Part shown: positions 3,411-61,867 of the stretch, piece after piece
Numbering within the stretch: the first letter of the stretch is position 1
Layout: every line of letters starts with the position of its first letter
NCBI GenBank assembly: GCA_951406725.2
Contig: OX597816.1
Span: 82,026,001-82,090,000, forward strand
Direction: 5' to 3'
Source of the DNA: Octopus vulgaris
Lineage: Eukaryota
Length of the DNA: 64,000 nt
Notes under the pieces: generated by a model
What the model saw: only the letters and a program-made list of their open reading frames with translations
Databases searched by the model: none
Told to the model about the DNA's origin: nothing
Translations under genes and position numbers: made by a program

Positions 3411-3567
3411 CCGCTTCTTGGGGAATGATCTCCCTTTGCAAGATAGAGGACGCCGTGATGGCGTCGGCCTATCTGGTGACGTTGATGTTCGCCTGGGGCT
3501 AAATGCAACAGTGACACCCCCACCACCCTGCCCTGTCCCTAGCCATATTCAGTTGGCTAATATCCCT

Positions 3568-3573
<6 letters not shown>
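3411..3573 (+). mobile_element. Truncated copy of the hammerhead-carrying module at 29702-30167, inside (TA)n
   Basis: Shares gatctccctttgc...ctggtgacgt.gatgttcgcctggggctaaatgca...cccccaccaccc and the same right terminus next to (TA)n. Confidence 0.8.
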
Positions 3574-9114: not shown

Positions 9115-9555
9115 TGACTAATCTGTTTTGTTTTTTTCTCAATGAAAAATCTTATGGTTCATTATAAAATTAAATGTTAAACATTTTCTCAGGTCCAAAA
9201 AGTTCCTTGGGCTTGTGTTTGGGCTTGTGTTTATTTCCCTTCTTTTGAAGCATTAAATAAAGGAAAAACTGATTTCCTACTGTATAGGTCTGTCGCAAGT
9301 AATTTATCCAAACAATTTACTCATTGATTTTACATCGTAGCTGCTGATTACAGCGTTGAAAAATAGCATTTTGTGGTACCTGTATACCGCCATACTGGTC
9401 GTGTATAGACCTAGCCAAGGATGTTTAGATATTTGAGAAAAGAACATGAAATAGTACGAAGCGCTAAACTATAAGCTGGTTGTTCTGAAGCTTACTGACT
9501 CGGCCACCTGCAGCTATCACTATGTTTTATTTTCATCTTTATTTATACTTTTCAG

Positions 9556-10128
9556 ATTCAATGTCATTGCTTGCTACACACTTGACTTCAAACTTTTATG
9601 ATTCGTCGGACATTTCAACAGCTAATTCATTACAACACCAAACTGCTGTTACGCAGGAAATCGAAACTTCTACATTTTCTCCTCAAGTGAGTTTCACAGG
9701 AGATAAAATTTCATCGTTTATCAGTGAAACGTTAATGCTTACAACAGAGCAACTGAGTGTCACATTGCCTTCTTTGTCTGTCAATCCTCCTCAAGACACG
9801 CCATCTTTCTTTATCAGTCCATCTCAAGTTACACCACCTTTATCTCTTACTCATTCTCAAGCTATTTCTAATACAATTCATTCACAATATACGACTCCAG
9901 ATGCTACTAGTTTTTGGTTTGAAACTACTAATGAACCAATAACTTCAGTCATAAAAGCGAGCAGTTTATCGGAAGTTTTCCAGTCAAGTTCAAGATCCCA
10001 TTATGAGTCATTGAGCATTGCAAGCAATTTGGAAGGCATAACTTCAAGTGTTATCGAATCCCAAGAGAGCTCTATTGACTACAAAAGTAACTCGAACATT
10101 AGTCCAGCTTCTCAAGAGACGGCAGCAG
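9556..10128 (+). CDS. Exon 4: Ser/Thr/Pro-rich mucin-like tract
   Basis: ttttcag acceptor, 573 nt open frame (phase 1-1), donor cag|gtaata. Confidence 0.85.
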
Positions 10129-10479
10129 GTAATAAACTGTTTATAACTACTAGAACGCTAATATAGTAAGTTGTTACATGTCTGTATCCTTGTTCAATTA
10201 AAATGAAATATAAAATTACATGACTAAATCCATATCCATGATGTTTTTGTTTAGAGTTAGACAAGTCCCCGTTCAGCAGATTTATGATAAAAGACACTCC
10301 AACTACGCCATTACATCTTATTACGGCTATATAGCAGGTGGTGCAGTCACGTAGTAGTGATGAAGTGAAAATACTATACTTATATATCTATCTCTCGATA
10401 GTCAGCTATACGCATATGCATGAATACATGCATACATATCTCTCTCGATAGTCAACATACACATATGCATGAATACATA

Positions 10480-14214: not shown

Positions 14215-15060
14215 AAATGAGACAACAAACCCAAGGCTGTGTGGAATTTTCAGGACATTTTTAGAGAGAAAGTTAGTCTTACAGCTGTTTCTGGAATATT
14301 AGGGATATCCCTTCATCAGAGACCATGTGAGATCGTTAAATAGAGGGAAATAGTATAGTTTAAAATAAGGAGTTATTTTGAAAAAGGATGGAAATAAGAA
14401 GTTTAAAGGGAAATAAGAGAATAAAAGTAAAAATAAAAATATACGTAGGATGTTATAGTTGCAGTTCCATTATTCAAAGAAAGTTGTGTGTAGAAGTGGT
14501 AGAAATGCATCTTGCTCATCGTATATAAATTCCGATAGGAGTTCATATTTTCTCATTACAAATGGAAAGTGTTGAGAAGTAGACTCTATATACTGTTCAT
14601 TCAAAGGGTCTTGTGTGAATGAAACTATGAGAATTTAGTGGTAGTATAAGTAGATAGAGTGGAGAGAAAAATATGTGCATGTTAAAATGAGGAGGATAGG
14701 TGAGGAAAGAAGAAAGAAAAAAGTGCAAGGGAAAAGAAAAAAAATGAAAAGAGAGCATTAGTTGGTGGTCAAGATATTATGAGCGGGCGGGAAAGGAGTA
14801 GGGGGGATTAAGAAAAGATAAGAATATAAGGAATGAATATGAGTGGGGAGTGAGAGGTGGGGATTATGTTTGAAAGGCACTAAGGTGGAGTGATAGGCAC
14901 ATAAAATGGTACAGTGGGGGTTATCAAAGTGAGTAGTAAACCTTAAAAAGGAAGGGAAGAATAATAAGATATAATGGTCAAGTTTCTAAAAATAGACAGA
15001 TGGGTTTATTGTAGTGGGTAAATGTGATAGTGGGGGATGAAGAATCAGAGAGAGAAAGAA
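14215..15060 (-). mobile_element. About 0.85-kb non-coding PLE-LTR-like element with terminal hammerhead
   Basis: Diverged reverse-complement homolog of about 40810-41665. Confidence 0.7.
14276..14323 (-). ncRNA. Minimal hammerhead motif, intact core
   Basis: RC: gtct CTGATGA a gggatat cccta atattcc a GAAA CAGCTG TA agac. Confidence 0.8.
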
Positions 15061-15387: not shown

Positions 15388-15499
15388 AGATCTGTTGGCC
15401 TGTGACATCTTTAATATATGGAGGGGAGAAGTCTGAATTAGCTCCCTTTGCCAATGACTATCGATTTCCGACCGTATTGCCATCGTTCAGCTGTGAGGG

Positions 15500-15850
15500 C
15501 AAACAATGGCGGATTATCTCCCACTCCCCAAAAGGCCAGCAGATGCAAACATGGCCCGAAAATCTTCGTTCTGGAGTTAAGTATAGCTCCTGGCTCGAGT
15601 GAGTCCCTTAGGATTCTCGTGCATTCGGATGTGCATAGCTTGCAGCGTTTCGTCCCGTTAATGTAGGGGCTTGGGTTTTCGAGGATTTTCCATGAGATCG
15701 AGTGTGGAACTCCGTCGTCTTTTAGTTGCCAAACGTGGCTGACCAGCGATGTTGCATATCTCCTTTTCGGGACTGTGAAGGAGGATCGATGGTGGGTAAA
15801 ACGTTTCTTGAATGAATTTCCGATACAACCAATAGATTATCGTGGACGCT
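15500..15850 (-). mobile_element. Penelope-like element GIY-YIG endonuclease C-terminal fragment
   Basis: Hand translation: GCIGNSFKKRFTHHRSSF...SLVSHVWQLKDDGVPHSISWKILENPSPYINGTKRCKLCTSE...LNSRTKIFGPCLH. Confidence 0.8.
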
Positions 15851-23110: not shown

Positions 23111-23211
23111 GATGGTTTGTTGCCAACGGTGTTTCTTCGGGCTAAATAGCAGTATCATTCTTCCCTTTCCTGGGACTGTCACATTAAGTTGGCAACAAAC
23201 CATCACTTTAT
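23104..23211. repeat. 24-bp inverted repeat next to (TA)n
   Basis: ataaagtgatggtttgttgccaac ... gttggcaacaaaccatcactttat. Confidence 0.9.
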
Positions 23212-25430: not shown

Positions 25431-26075
25431 CTATTTATATTGATGATATGGTTAACTGACACAAGTACAAGCACATAATTTTAGAAAGAGGTATGGGTCA
25501 ATTAAATCGCCTCCAATGCCTTTATTTATCGACCCAAGAAGAATTAAAAAGCAAAGTGAAGCTCAGTCGGATTTGAATTCATAGAGACTGATCGAATACT
25601 GGAAAAAAAAACCCAGCCTGACAAACGTCCAAACAATTCCTCTTGTCTACCATCCTAACTATATAATATATAATATAATCTTTAGCCCCTTGTGGGCAAT
25701 AAAGAAATATATGTAATATATATAATCATATGTAGAGAGGAAATGACCGAGTAGATAAGATGGATATTTATAACCAGCTCTTTGATGGTGAATTCATATC
25801 TGATATATATATTTAAGTCAGTTAAGACAAACTTTTCATGTAGCTCAGTACAAATGGCTGTTAGGAATGTTACTGGAAATTGAATGGGTAGTAGGAATTT
25901 TTATTTGTGATTGACTAGTATAAGATATTAGGAAAGGTGTTGAACTGAGGTATTACAGGAACCTTTGTATTTAATTATAAAGTTAACTTTTAAAATCTCT
26001 ACAATGAAGTTGTTAAATGCATTTTTTACATTTTTACTATATATTATTTTTTTATTTCTTATTTTATTTTTACAG

Positions 26076-28346
26076 ATCACGTCCCTCGAAGTACTTTACA
26101 AAATACTGAAGCCAATAGCACTGAATTTCCTCTTGATTCATCTCCTATATCACTGGATACAACATCGGTTGTAATAACAAATGCCATTATTTCCCAGGAT
26201 AAAAGTTTTTCAAGTAGTCCTACTCAAACTGACTCACTGGATTTTACAACAAGCTATTCTGCAGACCAATATTTTTCAAGTATTGAAGCTATTAAAAGTT
26301 TACTATCAGTTTCAACTAACGAGATTATTCGAACAAGTTCATTAGTATCCTTGACCGATGCATATTCATCTTTATCGATGTGGTATTCGAATGACGTTGC
26401 ACAAACCTACAGTTCATCATTGATCAGTACATTCGCAGAAACTGTGGGTACGAGCAGTTCGAAAGCTGAATCAAGTTTATTCAATCTAGACTTCTCTTCC
26501 ACTTCTCTGTCTGCTGATATGTCTTCAAAAAGCCAATCACTATTATATCATAGTCTGCTGCCCAGTACAATGTTATCAGTAGAAAATACTCCATCATTTA
26601 TACCTGTTACTTCCATTGTAGAAACAAATGGCTTTTCTTCGTCCATTTTTCTATCTATATTATCAATATCTTCAACTACATCTAAAATTCTATCTGAAAT
26701 ATTTACAAGCAGCCCGTTACAGCCATCTGATGCGTTAACTCACCTTATTACTAAAAGCAGTAACTTTGAAACACAGTATACAGAAAACATTGGGTCTACA
26801 TCTAATTCCAACAATGCAGAAGGTTCAGCAAGTTTGTTCATTCAAACCTCTTCATATAACCCAGTGACATCAACAAACATTAGTGCTTTAAATATATTGA
26901 ATACAGAAAGTTTGATTAGTCACAGCTCTATATTACCTTTTACTAATCTAAAAATTAGTAGTTTAACAACTTATGTAGCTGAAAGTCTACCGAGTTTCGT
27001 GAGTGATTTACACATACACTCTTCTGAATATCAAAGTATTGACTCATTTTCCTATGTATCGTTCCTGTCTACTAACAGTGTCAGTAACTCTCCACTGACT
27101 ACAATATATATGAACAGTAAAAATTCCCTGGAAACAAATTTATCTTACCTGCCTACAAACTCGGGTTTATTTTCTCTAGCTTTTCAGTCGACAACACCTA
27201 ATATAATCAGCAGCACACGATTTCAAACAGTTGAAGACGTGTCTGCCAGTTCTGTATCACCAGTAATATCTGAAGGAGTCTCACAATTAATCACAGATGA
27301 ATATTTTACGCAAAGTTCTCAATATGCCACACCTATATTTAGTCGTTATGCTACTAGTGGATGGGAATTGTCAAATAGCATTGACAGTACAGTAGAACAT
27401 TTTGAAAGAAGTGTTTCATTACAGACTTTTGTAGACGTTTACTCTTCAGTGTTCAGCAGTCAAACAGAAAGAACTGATGAATACAATACCACAGTGCAAA
27501 ATTCGGTTTCAAATCCTGATACCACTCTAACGGTGTTGTCAACTGTCTATTTAAATAATATAACAAATTCAAACGACATAACTTTATCTGTAACAGTTGG
27601 AGAATCAGGAATACAATCGGAACTACTAAATTCTTTTGAAAACAGTTTGCAGCAGAAATCTTCTGTTAATATTCTCCAATCAGAAAATGCGTCGGAATCC
27701 AGTCAGCTTTATATGGAGAAAACATTATCTGTTAACAATTTTCTAACTGATTCTCTTGGTAGTTTCTCCTCTGGAGACACAAAACAGCTAACTACCTTAC
27801 AGCTTACCGAAAAGACTCAAATGACGAGAGATTTTAGTTTCCAAACCGGAAGTAATGAACTGATGTATACTTCACCTTTCACCAGTACTGACGAATCTCA
27901 GCAATCAATGACTGACTATTTGACCCCCAGTTTTGAGTCAAATTTAATGTCAACAGTTGTTGCATCTCAACCAGTATATGAAACTGAATTTTCTTCGATA
28001 AGCATCATACTTAGTATAAACTCCAACATCAATTCCCAGCCGGTTACAAGTGGTTACCTCACTAATAAATTTTCCACTGCGATAAATACAGTTCCATACT
28101 CCGTTGGAACTCAGCAGCTCTACGCTTCAAGTGAATTTCTCTCAAAAACAAGAATTATTGACAGTTTTAGTGATTTTGCTACGTTACACTCAGAGAACTC
28201 TCAGAATAATTTTAAATCGGCCGAATTTAGCAGTTCATTCCGATTGGGAAGTGAAGATTTTGCAAGTAATACTTCACTATCGGTTTTAGAAATTCTTCCC
28301 ACAATTACAACCACTAATTTACCACAAGAAACAAAACACTTTACCG
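26076..28346 (+). CDS. Exon 5: long Ser/Thr-rich mucin-like tract (757 codons)
   Basis: attttatttttacag acceptor; frame continuous with ORF 26351..28426; donor acc g|gtaaat; phase 1-1. Confidence 0.88.
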
Positions 28347-28739
28347 GTAAATTTTTATTTAATAAAAATTGTTTTCTTATATTGTTAAATTTTCACAGAG
28401 TTTATTTACTGAGCATTTTACTATAGGCTAATCCAATTATAAACTAATCTACTTATTAGCATCAATCTTCACAATTTAAAGTCGTTAAGTTTTGTTTAAT
28501 AGTACAACATTAAATGGAAAATTCTGAGTTCAGATTACAATTTACAATAACAACGTTTTAAGTTTTACTGATTTGTAAAAATTTTGGGAAAATTAAAATA
28601 CTTCACAAGTAATACACTATCACAACTGTAAAAGAAGCCTGAATCCTCAAGTAAACATTCTCTAAAAATTTGCTCTATATTTAGTTATAAATAATTGGAA
28701 ATAATCCGTGATCTTTGGTAATATCAGATGAGATGTTTC

Positions 28740-29668: not shown

Positions 29669-29701
<33 letters not shown>

Positions 29702-29703
<2 letters not shown>

Positions 29704-30162
29704 CTGGTGACGTCGATGTTCGCCTGGGGCTAAATGCATCAGTAACACCCCCACCACCCCGCCCTGACCCTAGTCACATTCAGATGGCTGATCCCTCTTA
29801 TGTTATAGAGCAGTTACTGTTTATATCTCGCCCAGAGATTTATTATTGTTTTCGAACAGATTTTCTACGCCAGTGACTGTGGTTACTGTGAAAATCTATA
29901 TATATCCAGCCTGCAGAGGAAGTCCCTCAACGAAGAGCGGTGCTTACCATACGTTGACAAGAGGCAATAACCTCGAAACCGGTCCGTGTGTAGTATCTAT
30001 ATCTTCGGGGAGGCTGATCTCCCTTTGCTGGCTGGCAAGGACACCGAGATGGTGTCAGCTCTTCTGGTGACGTCGATGTTCGCCTGGGGCTAAATGCATC
30101 AGTAACACCCCCACCACCCCGCCCTGACCCTAGCCACATTCAGATGGCTGATCCCTCTTATG

Positions 30163-30167
<5 letters not shown>
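29702..30167 (+). mobile_element. Hammerhead-carrying 360-bp-unit partial tandem (retrozyme/pLTR-like) within (TA)n
   Basis: 29702-29807 repeated at 30062-30167 (offset 360, one mismatch); (TA)n on both sides. Confidence 0.85.
29948..29990 (+). ncRNA. Minimal hammerhead with U3/A8 core variant
   Basis: catacg TTGACAA gagg caataa cctc GAAA CCGG TC cgtgtg; stems I and II fully paired, ACCGGT palindrome, GUC triplet. Confidence 0.8.
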
Positions 30168-30229
<62 letters not shown>

Positions 30230-42561: not shown

Positions 42562-43343
42562 GTGAGTAAAAGAATATTTTAAAAATTCAACTACTCATAT
42601 AAAATAAGTACAAACGCACCCACAAAACAGTCGCACATGCACGCAACAGCATGAGTATTTTGAATACATCAGTAGTCAACAAAGAAGCCTCTGAGTAGTT
42701 GTTGGACCTACAAGAAACAGCAGCTAATCCTGCCTCAGGCCTCAGTCTATTGTTTTGGAAAGAATGGGCTGTATTGAATAACGTAGCCTTGCATGCTCAT
42801 TGCTAGGAAAATAAGATGTTCGTGGTAAAGATTGTTAACCTCTTTTGGTCAATGAGGATTGACCTCGGGTTAAGCTGCAGCCATAGCAACAACAGCAGCC
42901 GTTCAAGAATTTGGACCTGGAGATCTCCATTTCCAGCGACTTTGAGGACCACCTCCCAGTGGTGTCGGGCGTCAACGAAGAGCCCTCGACTGCAACAAGA
43001 CGACCAGAGTTGTTTTTTTCCCAAGGTCTGGGGTCTCCTGGCCCTAAGCCCTAGACCACCACCTAATTACCCCTACCCGTCTTGTTGCTTAACAACAACA
43101 ACAGCAGCAGCAGCAACAGCAAATGCAGCATCAGCAGCAAAAACGACTACAACAAAAACAGTTCTATTGATTGTTCGATATCAATTCTTTTCTCCTTAGA
43201 ATTCTAGACCGAACCAGAGCTCTAGCAATTATGTGAACGATAAACGGTCACTGGAAAATATCATTCCAGCTGCCTCGACGCAAAGCCACGTATAATAGGT
43301 GTAAGGAAATTTCTTATAACGGTGTTTTTGTTCTATTTTCTAG

Positions 43344-43463
43344 ATATTGACGAGTGTCAGGAAAATATTTGTCCACTTCACTCTGATTGTATCAATACAG
43401 AAGGCTCATACAGTTGTCAATGCAAACTTGGTTACTATGAAATCAGAGAAAATAGATGCTCAG
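43344..43463 (+). CDS. Exon 8: calcium-binding EGF domain
   Basis: ttttctag|DIDECQENICPLHSDCINTEGSYSCQCKLGYYEIRENRCS|gtaatg; phase 1-1. Confidence 0.93.
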
Positions 43464-43914
43464 GTAATGGTTATTCCTTTACAATATTCTACCACCTCTT
43501 CGATCCCTGTCCGTCTCATTTTTTTAAATTTGTTTTTTCTTCCTTTCTTTACTCATTTCATTCACTTTTTTCTTACTAATTTCTTGTTTCTTTTTTTCTT
43601 AATCCCTGAATCGCATCATAGATTATTAAATTAATTTTAATTAAGAGCAATTTCTAGCTGTGCAGCAGAACATTTTGGCTTTAATCAACGATAGAAATAA
43701 TGTCTTTTGATTAATTGATTTATATGTTCTACTTGCATAATTTTTTTTTTTTTTTTGACAGTTATCAGATTTTCACTACTATAGGATAATGTCTGTGTAT
43801 TGACAAATATATAAACAGTTTGAAGGAAAATCCATAGTTTAATCTTGGCAAAGCTGATAATGCCTAACTCAGTCAAAATTGGAATCTTACAGCTGCTTTA
43901 GAACCAAGTTAAAG

Positions 43915-48997: not shown

Positions 48998-49039
<42 letters not shown>

Positions 49040-49197
49040 TAATTGCCAACCAAGCGTGGTATCCTATGCAGGACAGTGCTACTGACGTTTATAGCCCCAG
49101 GAAGACATCTCCTCTAACTAGCTAACGACACACATTCTGTGTCCGATTAGTATTTGCGATGGGAGGTCATCGCTCCCATCTCTAGCTTTACGTGATA

Positions 49198-49242
49198 CAC
49201 ACGGACTCGAGTTTCTGGGTGGTTACCCGTCCTCAGCGTGTA
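49198..49242 (-). ncRNA. Minimal hammerhead, intact core
   Basis: RC: tacacg CTGAGGA c gggt aacc accc a GAAA CTCGAG TC cgtgtg. Confidence 0.85.
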
Positions 49243-60419: not shown

Positions 60420-61495
60420 TTTTTTGTCAGACAGGATGCTAGAAAAAGGAATATGGTCACCGTGGAGTTTGCATATTAAGAAACGTTTGGAATTTTTCAA
60501 TAAAAATATTCTCCTTGTTGATTCTTTCTTGTGTAGAGATTCTGTCTTTACATTGATAGAAAGGGAATATATGAAATTTGGGATTTTTATTTCTAGTGCA
60601 AGAGTCTATGTGGCTATTGAGTGTAATTTGACGGTATTGTGGGAGATTTATCTGTTCTTTCTGGACTGCTACTCTTCTGCGTAAAGGAAGGCTCGTTTGT
60701 CCAGCATAATTGTGTTGGCAACCGGCGCATGTAAGAACGTAGATGAGGTTCTCGGAGGAACAGAAGTTGGTCTTGATTTTAAACTTTGTTCCTTGTTTGA
60801 AAGTAAATTCAGAGCCTTCAAGTAGGAAGGGGCAGGTACTACAGTTAGGGCGTGCACATTTTTTAACTGATGGGGTGGATGTGGGGTGTGAAGTTTGGTA
60901 TTTGTTAAGAGTTTTTTCAAAGATTTATGTTTCCTTTTGCATTTAAGGATTTTATGGACAGGAAGGGGAGGTTTTGTATGATTGTGGTGTATGCTTCGAT
61001 GTTTTGGGGGTTGTGGGTGAAAATGTAAGGAAGTATTTTGAGGTTGGGTGTGTTACTGTGCTGGGTGGTTTTCAGTGTATTATTGTCGAGTTCTTTGGCA
61101 CGTTTTATTCCATAGTCTATGAGTGTGGGGGATATTGGCGTTGTAATAATGTTTTTTTGAGGTCTTGAAGGCGTATATCTCGAGTTTTTGGATTCGAGAC
61201 AATGGTGCATATCCTTTTAGCTAAGTTGAAGTGGATATTTATCTTGGTGTGTTTTGGGTGGCATGAACTGAAGAGGGTTGTAGGTTTGTGGTAGATGTCT
61301 GTTATGATTTGGTTGTTAGGTGTTTTTATTATTGGGAGATCAAAGAAAGGGAGATGATGTTTGCTGAATTCCATAGTGAATTGAATGTTGGGATGTATGT
61401 TGTTCAGTGTGGTTTTGAATTCCAGAAGCTTTTCATAAGATTCTTTCCATAATATGAAACAATCATCTAGGTATCTTTTCCAGTTTTCCATTAAG
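60420..61495 (-). mobile_element. Decayed Penelope-like element (RT C-terminal half plus GIY-YIG)
   Basis: WKRYLDDCFILW..LNNIHPNIQFTME..LPFFDL..TDIYHKPT..SCHPKHTK; downstream NLIYVLTCAGCQHNYAGQT. Confidence 0.85.
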
Positions 61496-61867
61496 TAGAT
61501 ATATAGACATATACATATATATATGGTATGTATGTATGCATGTATGTATGTATGTATGTATGTATATATATACTATGTGTGTGTGTGTTTGTATGTGTAC
61601 TGTTTACAGTTACGTTATAGGTGGTATCAGCAAAAAATGTACACCATCCAGTGAGAAATAAATATCATTGAATATACACAGTTTACAAGAGAGCTATTAC
61701 TAATTTCATACTTTAGAGATACAATACTTTGGTAGATTTATATAACATGACATGTATCTCCAAGCAGAGAAAACATGAGAAAACACGAGAAGAAAACATG
61801 CGAGGAAGATTGATGCAAAAGTGGAACGAGAAGAAAGAAAAGGAAAGGAAGAAAACCAAGATCTTCG

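What the first reader, a model, noticed from the sequence alone, without database searches (positions are those of the whole stretch)
29948..29990. Hammerhead with a U3-A8 double substitution in the catalytic core
Seen: the core reads UUGACAA instead of CUGAnGA, while stem I (catacg/cgtgtg), stem II (gagg/cctc), GAAA and GUC are intact. The related motif at 49198 has nearly the same stem I and a canonical core. Known: C3 and G8 form a tertiary Watson-Crick pair, and U3-A8 preserves it. Inference: a natural compensatory variant under selection. Caveat: G8>A alone fits CpG decay, so the pair could be a coincidence.
Basis: partly seen in the sequence, partly recalled or inferred. Interest (0 to 1): 0.75.

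Follow-up and report, generated by a model that had tools for sequence, protein, structure and literature searches.

The report
Retrozyme family shuffling its ribozyme core
This is one copy of a protein-free jumping repeat whose hammerhead-shaped, likely self-cutting RNA has an already known U-A swap in a core base pair; hundreds of copies share the swap, but related families spread with other, probably weaker, cores, so the swap is likely tolerated rather than specially selected.

Summary
The motif is real: a type I hammerhead (29948-29990) with U3 and A8, inside a 360-nt non-coding unit plus a 106-nt terminal repeat, inserted in a TA microsatellite. It is not decay of this copy: 87 of 88 exact subfamily matches genome-wide are U3-A8. 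The element is a non-LTR retrozyme with Penelope-type insertions; natural U3-A8 is published (PMC3088659, PMC4209133). The superfamily (about 3,900 pattern matches) spread with C3-G8 (1161), U3-A8 (500), U3-G8 (362) and C4 cores (1737); C3-A8 (31) is mostly scattered decay, but a distant older subfamily amplified with C3-A8. G5, A6, A9, G12-A14 show only decay-level change. So the catalytic skeleton is conserved while positions 3, 4, 7, 8 wander. Position 8 changed four times between subfamilies, always beside U3, which fits pairing logic but is not significant (about p 0.2). The C4 subfamily has longer arrays than an age-matched sister (2.96 vs 1.62 ribozymes per site), hinting that slower cutting helps spread. 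Cleavage is untested. This scan noted the family and the four pair versions before on other DNA of this genome.

The parts
29702..30167 (+). Whole insertion: one 360-nt non-coding unit plus 106 nt of the next unit (1.3 units; pseudo-LTR-like direct repeat 29702-29807 / 30062-30167)
   Evidence: Direct repeat 99% identical, spacing 360; 77 matches from 40 scored of 1614 candidates, full-length ones 95-99% identical
29931..29947 (+). Distal stem I, 5' arm, ending in a 3-nt bulge (29945-29947) predicted to dock with loop II
   Evidence: RNAfold; Rfam HH9 alignment keeps the bulge; docking is inferred
29948..29953 (+). Proximal stem I, 5' arm
   Evidence: inner pair probability 0.95
29954..29960 (+). 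Core strand U3-U4-G5-A6-C7-A8-A9 (U3 = 29954, A8 = 29959)
   Evidence: subfamily state in 87 of 88 matches
29961..29974 (+). Stem II (4 bp, canonical G10.1-C11.1) with 6-nt loop
   Evidence: pair probability 0.99-1.0
29975..29984 (+). G12-A13-A14-A15.1, palindromic stem III (29978-29983) and C17; predicted cut between 29984 and 29985
   Evidence: palindrome self-duplex -8.3 kcal/mol; cut site from hammerhead numbering (established knowledge)
29985..30006 (+). Stem I 3' arms; this copy has a private two-base change at 29998-29999 (double CpG-type decay) that opens two pairs of the distal stem
   Evidence: Only the window copy has both letters among the 61 aligned rows; folds of window copy and L014 compared
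29671..29701 (.). TA microsatellite at the 5' junction (target)
30164..30223 (.). TA microsatellite at the 3' junction (target)
   Evidence: 13 of 15 distinct subfamily sites whose 3' end matched the probe run into a TA tract
49037..49242 (-). Older relative of the same superfamily with a C3-G8 hammerhead (49242-49198) and a C10.1-A11.1 mismatch
   Evidence: nhmmer E 1.2e-47 to the superfamily profile

Best explanation
The motif is the type I hammerhead of a 360-nt non-coding repeat with thousands of relatives in this genome, and its U3-A8 core is the inherited state of one young subfamily in a lineage that likely needs a working but not optimal ribozyme. Shown: repeat structure, copy counts, TA-tract insertion, tandem and 5'-inverted copies, conservation of G5/A6/A9/G12-A14 and variation at 3/4/7/8 among subfamilies. 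Inferred: tandem copies are transcribed; two hammerheads dimerise through the palindromic stem III and cut out a unit-length RNA, which is likely circularised; a Penelope-type reverse transcriptase/GIY-YIG endonuclease supplied in trans copies it into TA tracts. U3-A8 likely keeps the tertiary 3-8 pair and cutting, but U-G, C-A and C4 cores also supported spread, so selection on this pair is loose. The window copy has only one hammerhead and is probably a dead-end insertion in an intron.
For: 87 of 88 subfamily matches are U3-A8, 1 is C3-A8, none has G8. Genome-wide: C3-G8 1161, U3-A8 500, U3-G8 362, C3-A8 31, other 33 of 2087 (by subtraction). Freeing G12/A13/A14 adds 75 matches to 2054 (control 5). 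Freeing 4/5/6/9 gives 3950 (control 35), of which C4 explains up to 1737, leaving about 160-190 for G5, A6, A9 and purines at 4. On a tree of 19 subfamily groups (1.8 substitutions/site), 76 of the 233 columns not fixed by my pattern never change, so six unchanged catalytic sites would arise by chance about 0.001 of the time (my arithmetic). Window-subfamily hammerhead has the best predicted fold of 14 copies tested (stem I 0.95, stem II 0.99). Unit folds as a compact circle, z -3.1. 38 of 205 sites show head-to-head inverted copies, none tail-to-tail, as described for Penelope-like elements (PMC8557442 passages). Natural U3-A8 is reported, and the swap was active in vitro according to PMC3088659 section 8.
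Against: No cleavage, circle or transcript was shown. In one type III hammerhead only the C3G/G8C swap rescued; all other doubles in that region, which includes U3-A8, had low activity (PMC9901934 passages). No autonomous partner was found: Penelope-like fragments lie within the fetched flanks of 7 distinct sites among 290 loci, each at a different spacing. Conservation of G5, A6, A9, G12-A14 could reflect a protein-binding fold rather than chemistry. Some Penelope clades spread with no hammerhead. A15.1-C17 and inner stem I were fixed in every pattern and so are untested.
Confidence: 0.7

Rival explanations
1. Strict compensation: a Watson-Crick 3-8 pair is required, and U3 and A8 were fixed together to keep full activity.
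For: Within this superfamily C3-A8 never forms a subfamily (25 scattered copies); the four subfamily-level changes at position 8 all lie among U3 groups; position 3 is always a pyrimidine and 8 a purine in amplified groups.
Against: U3-G8 forms several young subfamilies (362 copies). In a distant older family, C3-A8 is the state of 11 separate sites that share their own stem I letters, beside 17 C3-G8 sites. The U3 part is about two-thirds of tree length, so 4 of 4 changes there has p near 0.2 (my arithmetic).
Confidence: 0.14
2. The hammerhead no longer needs to cut; its fold is kept as a handle for the Penelope protein or as part of a structured RNA, and the core drifts.
For: The largest subfamily carries C4 (1737 matches) and is predicted to misfold as a monomer (inner stem I 0.22-0.24); 10.1-11.1 is often a mismatch in subfamilies; Naiad and most Chlamys elements spread without hammerheads.
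Against: The general base G12 and G5, A6, A9, A13, A14, which are single-stranded and matter for catalysis (established knowledge), show only decay-level variation, while freely varying position 7 changes most (7 changes).
Confidence: 0.14
3. U3 and A8 are two independent decay mutations in one dead copy of a C3-G8 family.
For: G8>A in a C7-G8 context is CpG decay and does occur as singles in the young C3-G8 subfamily (3 copies); this copy has a double CpG-type change at 29998-29999.
Against: 87 of 88 subfamily matches share U3-A8 and none has G8; U3 majority with A8/G8 mixture is also seen in runs labelled as three organisms.
Confidence: 0.01

Closest known systems
Metazoan non-LTR retrozymes (Cervera and de la Pena 2020, PMC7229834: passages and section 14 read; Li, Clavereau and Pollet 2026, bioRxiv 10.64898/2026.07.22.740005: part 1 of 5 and passages read)
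   Same: Non-coding 150-450-bp units (mussel 350-390 bp) with one type I hammerhead each, tandem copies, compact predicted circle.
   Different: Circles not shown here. The passages read report no series of core states among subfamilies; descriptors with a canonical core would miss about two-thirds of these copies (U3-A8, U3-G8, C4).
U3-A8 minimal hammerheads of Schistosoma Cercyon Penelope-like elements (Cervera and de la Pena 2014, PMC4209133: parts 1-2 of 4 read)
   Same: Same U3-A8 covariation (about 1,300 hits there), palindromic stem III for dimer action, copies nearby on opposite strands.
   Different: Those are minimal motifs with long stem II in pLTRs of coding elements; this is a canonical-shape type I motif (6-bp stem I, 4-bp stem II, bulge/loop elements) in a non-coding unit.
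Natural core variants of hammerheads (Perreault et al. 2011, PMC3088659: passages and section 8 read)
   Same: U3-A8 covariation found in nature; swap reported active in vitro; U10.1-U11.1 tolerated.
   Different: There they are rare single examples; here U3-A8, U3-G8 and C4 are states of amplified subfamilies with hundreds to over a thousand copies.
Rfam RF02275 Hammerhead_HH9
   Same: Aligns full length with the stem I bulge and loop II letters (E 1.3e-5).
   Different: 28.8 bits, below the 52-bit gathering score; HH9 is a single-copy intronic amniote ribozyme (recalled) with a longer stem III.
EN+ Penelope-like elements (Craig et al. 2021, PMC8557442: passages read)
   Same: 5' truncation, partial tandems forming pLTRs, inverted 5' copies, microsatellite bias including (TA)n.
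   Different: No reading frame here; the mobilising element was not identified.

Membership tests
Type I hammerhead ribozyme | Three stems around the core, open end at stem I | tested here: met
   stem III is only 2 bp with a palindrome
Type I hammerhead ribozyme | Core U4-G5-A6-N7-x-A9, G12-A13-A14, A15.1-U16.1, H17 | tested here: met
   All present
Type I hammerhead ribozyme | Watson-Crick pair between 3 and 8 (usually C3-G8) | tested here: met
   U3-A8 can pair; C3-G8 itself is not present; variant published
Type I hammerhead ribozyme | Rfam gathering score | tested here: not met
   HH9 28.8 bits against 52; no other hammerhead model listed
Type I hammerhead ribozyme | Self-cleavage at position 17 | not testable with these tools
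   Needs a cleavage assay
Metazoan non-LTR retrozyme | 150-450-bp non-coding unit with one type I hammerhead | tested here: met
   360-nt unit; no ORF of 110 aa or more overlaps 29702-30167
Metazoan non-LTR retrozyme | Dispersed and tandem copies with hammerheads in consecutive units | tested here: met
   Family level: 88 matches at 67 sites, up to 4 per site. The window copy itself has one hammerhead
Metazoan non-LTR retrozyme | Highly self-paired unit | tested here: met
   Circular fold -111.9 kcal/mol, z -3.1 against 100 dinucleotide shuffles
Metazoan non-LTR retrozyme | Accumulates as circular RNA | tested here: inconclusive
   Unit-length contigs that run back on themselves in one run guessed to be RNA fit circles or tandem copies equally
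Non-autonomous Penelope-like element | Partial tandems, inverted 5' copies, microsatellite targets | tested here: met
   38 of 205 sites head-to-head, none tail-to-tail; 13 of 15 3' ends in TA tracts
Non-autonomous Penelope-like element | Shared terminal sequence with an autonomous RT/GIY-YIG element | tested here: inconclusive
   No consistent fusion in 290 loci with flanks of about 0.7-1.5 kb; no genome-wide search for the partner was run

The most novel reading that the evidence does not exclude
This superfamily is a natural evolution experiment on a ribozyme core: one master lineage passed through C3-G8, C3-C4-G8, U3-A8, U3-G8, U3-A8 and back to C3-C4-G8 while keeping the catalytic residues, and selection tunes cutting downwards, because slower cleavage lets circles or multimers survive reverse transcription and so yields longer arrays and more copies. 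The most abundant young subfamily carries U4C and has the longest arrays.
Probability: 0.25. Interest if true: 0.7.

Novelty: new member of a known kind. Interest (0 to 1): 0.4.

Why it matters
The U3-A8 swap alone is known. What is useful is the allelic series: age-dated subfamilies in one genome that differ at core positions 3, 4 and 8 and at the 10.1-11.1 pair, with countable copy numbers and array lengths. It makes an open question testable: do hammerheads in Penelope-like elements and retrozymes need to cut, and how fast? It also shows that canonical-core descriptors would miss most copies of this superfamily (1161 of about 3,900 matches are canonical C3-U4-G8).

Tried and rejected
Whole-window Rfam scan listed only simple-repeat hits among the 150 of 231 shown; the focused scan found HH9. 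First tree was discarded: non-homologous upstream flanks distorted it. The copy-level tree nested C3-G8 copies of the CTGCAG lineage inside U3-A8 copies, the reverse of the subfamily trees; I trust the latter more, but the order at that step is not settled and recombination between subfamilies was not tested. The idea that U3-G8 was the stepping stone from C3-G8 to U3-A8 is not shown: the first U3 group on the tree is U3-A8, and either order gives the same count of changes. Expression: no RNA holder listed; the four runs laid are only guessed to be RNA and are contigs, so they show no strand, ends or level. Search for an autonomous partner in fetched flanks gave nothing consistent; Pfam gave no hit for the window's three Penelope-like fragments, so their identity is recalled, not tested. 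Kinetic papers on the 3-8 pair (Przybilski and Hammann 2007; Nelson and Uhlenbeck 2008; Lee and York 2008) were not held. Array length as a proxy for weak cutting does not mark U3-A8 as weak: U3-A8 and U3-G8 sites (1.3-1.6) are not longer than young C3-G8 sites (1.88). Rows dropped: 12 of 231 copies before the tree; 293 hits reduced to 212 (one per site and core state), 12 more dropped as short; 132 of 200 rows entered the 19 groups; the last, possibly truncated, site of a listing was left out for the C4 and young C3-G8 sets.

Full report
Observation. The window reads a complete type I hammerhead at 29948-29990 on the plus strand with U at position 3 (29954) and A at position 8 (29959). Stem I continues past a 3-nt bulge for about 12 more pairs, and Rfam HH9 aligns over 29936-30006 at E 1.3e-5, under its gathering score. 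Stem III is a 2-bp stem on a 6-nt palindrome that is predicted to pair between two copies, the dimer arrangement described for metazoan type I hammerheads (PMC4209133). The motif at 49242-49198 is on the minus strand, has C3-G8 and a mismatch at 10.1-11.1, and is a distant older relative.

The element. The hammerhead lies in a 360-nt unit followed by 106 nt of the next unit (29702-30167), between TA tracts. The genome is 2.8 Gb in 227 contigs; I take it to be octopus-like from size and repeat landscape (inference). A DNA search returned 77 matches from 40 scored of 1614 candidates, the full-length ones 95-99% identical. Of 15 distinct subfamily sites whose 3' end matched my probe, 13 run into a TA tract. 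Of 205 sites in my loci, 148 had one pattern match, 19 tandem only, 38 head-to-head inverted, none tail-to-tail. These are the insertion marks described for Penelope-like elements (PMC8557442 passages). The unit folds as a compact circle (z -3.1). This matches metazoan non-LTR retrozymes (PMC7229834), proposed to derive from Penelope-like elements (bioRxiv 10.64898/2026.07.22.740005). The copy probably sits in an intron, between a long Ser/Thr-rich frame (25994-28426) and an EGF exon near 43340 (inference).

Is U3-A8 decay? No. With positions 3 and 8 free, 87 of 88 exact subfamily matches are U3-A8, one is C3-A8 and none has G8. Runs labelled as three organisms show a U3 majority and an A8/G8 mixture at these places, so the states are likely shared with related species.

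The wider superfamily. A looser pattern gives 2087 matches against 1 for the control: C3-G8 1161, U3-A8 500, U3-G8 362, C3-A8 31, 33 other by subtraction. U3-G8 forms its own young subfamilies. Of the 31 C3-A8 matches, 25 are scattered across subfamilies at a decay-like rate; 6 belong to a distant family. A search with one of those showed that it has two subgroups with different stem I letters: one C3-G8 (17 separate sites with the same stem III) and one C3-A8 (11 separate sites after merging duplicated loci; one search counts 23 C3-A8 and 19 C3-G8 rows). So a mismatch master also amplified, which counts against strict compensation.

Which core positions are conserved? Freeing G12, A13, A14 adds 75 matches to 2054 (control 5), about 1% per site. 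Freeing positions 4, 5, 6 and 9 nearly doubles the count to 3950 (control 35); 1737 matches have C4, leaving about 160-190 for the rest. The largest subfamily therefore has a C3-C4-G5-A6-Y7-G8-A9 core, and older C4 groups occur in two other branches. On a tree of 19 groups holding 132 of 200 copies, built without positions 3, 4 and 8 (total 1.8 substitutions per site), the fewest changes are 2 at position 3, 3 at position 4, 7 at position 7 and 5 at position 8; one of the five comes from three decay copies that my C3-A8 search pulled in. 76 of 233 columns not fixed by the pattern never change, so six unchanged catalytic sites have a chance near 0.001 (my arithmetic). A15.1 to C17 and inner stem I were fixed in all patterns and are untested.

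History. The oldest groups are C3-G8 (median non-CpG divergence 0.04-0.05), and the distant families attach among C3-G8 copies. The groups form a ladder with most key branches at 95-100: C3-G8 and C3-C4-G8, then U3-A8, U3-G8, the window's U3-A8 group (divergence 0.014-0.018), a cluster alternating U3-A8 and U3-G8, and a young C3-C4-G8 group sister to a U3-G8 group. All four subfamily-level changes at position 8 lie among U3 groups, as pairing logic predicts, but that part is about two-thirds of the tree, so p is near 0.2. The copy-level tree reversed the order at the first step, recombination was not tested, and the direction of single changes is open.

Array length. From the first-100 listings, ribozymes per site average 2.96 (27 sites, max 12) for the young C4 group, 1.62 (32 sites) for its U3-G8 sisters (p 0.007), 1.60 (20 sites) for a U3-A8 group, 1.88 (26 sites) for the young C3-G8 group and 1.31 (67 sites, stricter pattern) for the window group. 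Ages of these groups are similar (0.005-0.016). The C4 hammerhead is predicted to misfold more (inner stem I 0.22-0.24), whereas the window type has the best predicted fold of 14 copies tested. This is one evolutionary contrast and only a hint.

Literature. Natural U3-A8 is reported, with in vitro activity cited (PMC3088659 section 8), and in about 1,300 Schistosoma Penelope hammerheads (PMC4209133); that paper also found low activity of minimal motifs. In a pairwise scan of one type III hammerhead only the G3-C8 swap rescued (PMC9901934 passages), so activity of U3-A8 depends on context. PMC3884650 and PMC7151607 (passages) confirm the C3-G8 pair and that rare core variants lower rates. A natural U4C viroid variant with reduced activity is recalled, not read. 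Nine paper searches listed no report of a cephalopod retrozyme or of a subfamily series of core states; subscription journals and supplements were not seen.

Verdict. A real U3-A8 hammerhead in a young retrozyme subfamily: a new member of a known kind with a known variant. The added value is the dated allelic series and the success of the C4 core. Earlier notes of this scan on other DNA of this genome reached similar readings.

Noticed in passing
G000 C1:31009478-31013489; C1:75379567-75382314; C1:141725921-141728423 (L254-L265, L290): The most abundant subfamily has a U4C core (C3-C4-G8; 1737 C4 matches) and forms head-to-head arrays of up to 12 units; all units of one array share the same letter at position 7, as expected from one template.
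   Followed up: partly
L060, L213-L216, L220, L221, L229, L232, L052: A distant older family has a subgroup in which C3-A8 is the shared state at 11 separate sites, beside a C3-G8 subgroup.
   Followed up: partly
L053 (G000 C13:26023257): The single C3-A8 copy of the window subfamily shares three variants with the deepest contig (depth 219) of run X5, which is only guessed to be RNA; it may be carried in a host transcript.
   Followed up: partly
window 29705-30157 laid on run X1: Contigs of 390 and 373 letters run back on themselves by one unit (360+30, 343+30), which fits circles or tandem copies.
   Followed up: partly
subfamily stem II: The 10.1-11.1 pair varies among subfamilies (G-C, G-U, U-U, C-A); both switches at position 3 coincide with a switch at position 4 (CC versus UU), with almost no mixed copies (1 U3-C4 in 100 listed).
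   Followed up: no
window 14274-14325 (-) and 15438-15836 (-): A second, unrelated canonical-core hammerhead-like motif lies about 1.1 kb downstream of a frame that looks like a Penelope GIY-YIG end (recalled; no Pfam hit).
   Followed up: no
window 60457-61572 (-): Broken frames resembling a Penelope-like RT and GIY-YIG region (recalled; no Pfam hit).
   Followed up: partly
window 3419-3572 (+) and 23118-23206 (+): Two 3'-end fragments of the same superfamily without the hammerhead.
   Followed up: no
window 25994-28426 (+), 9489-10166 (+), 43244-43579 (+): Long Ser/Thr-rich open frames and a calcium-binding EGF exon suggest a mucin-like or adhesion host gene whose introns hold the repeats.
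   Followed up: no
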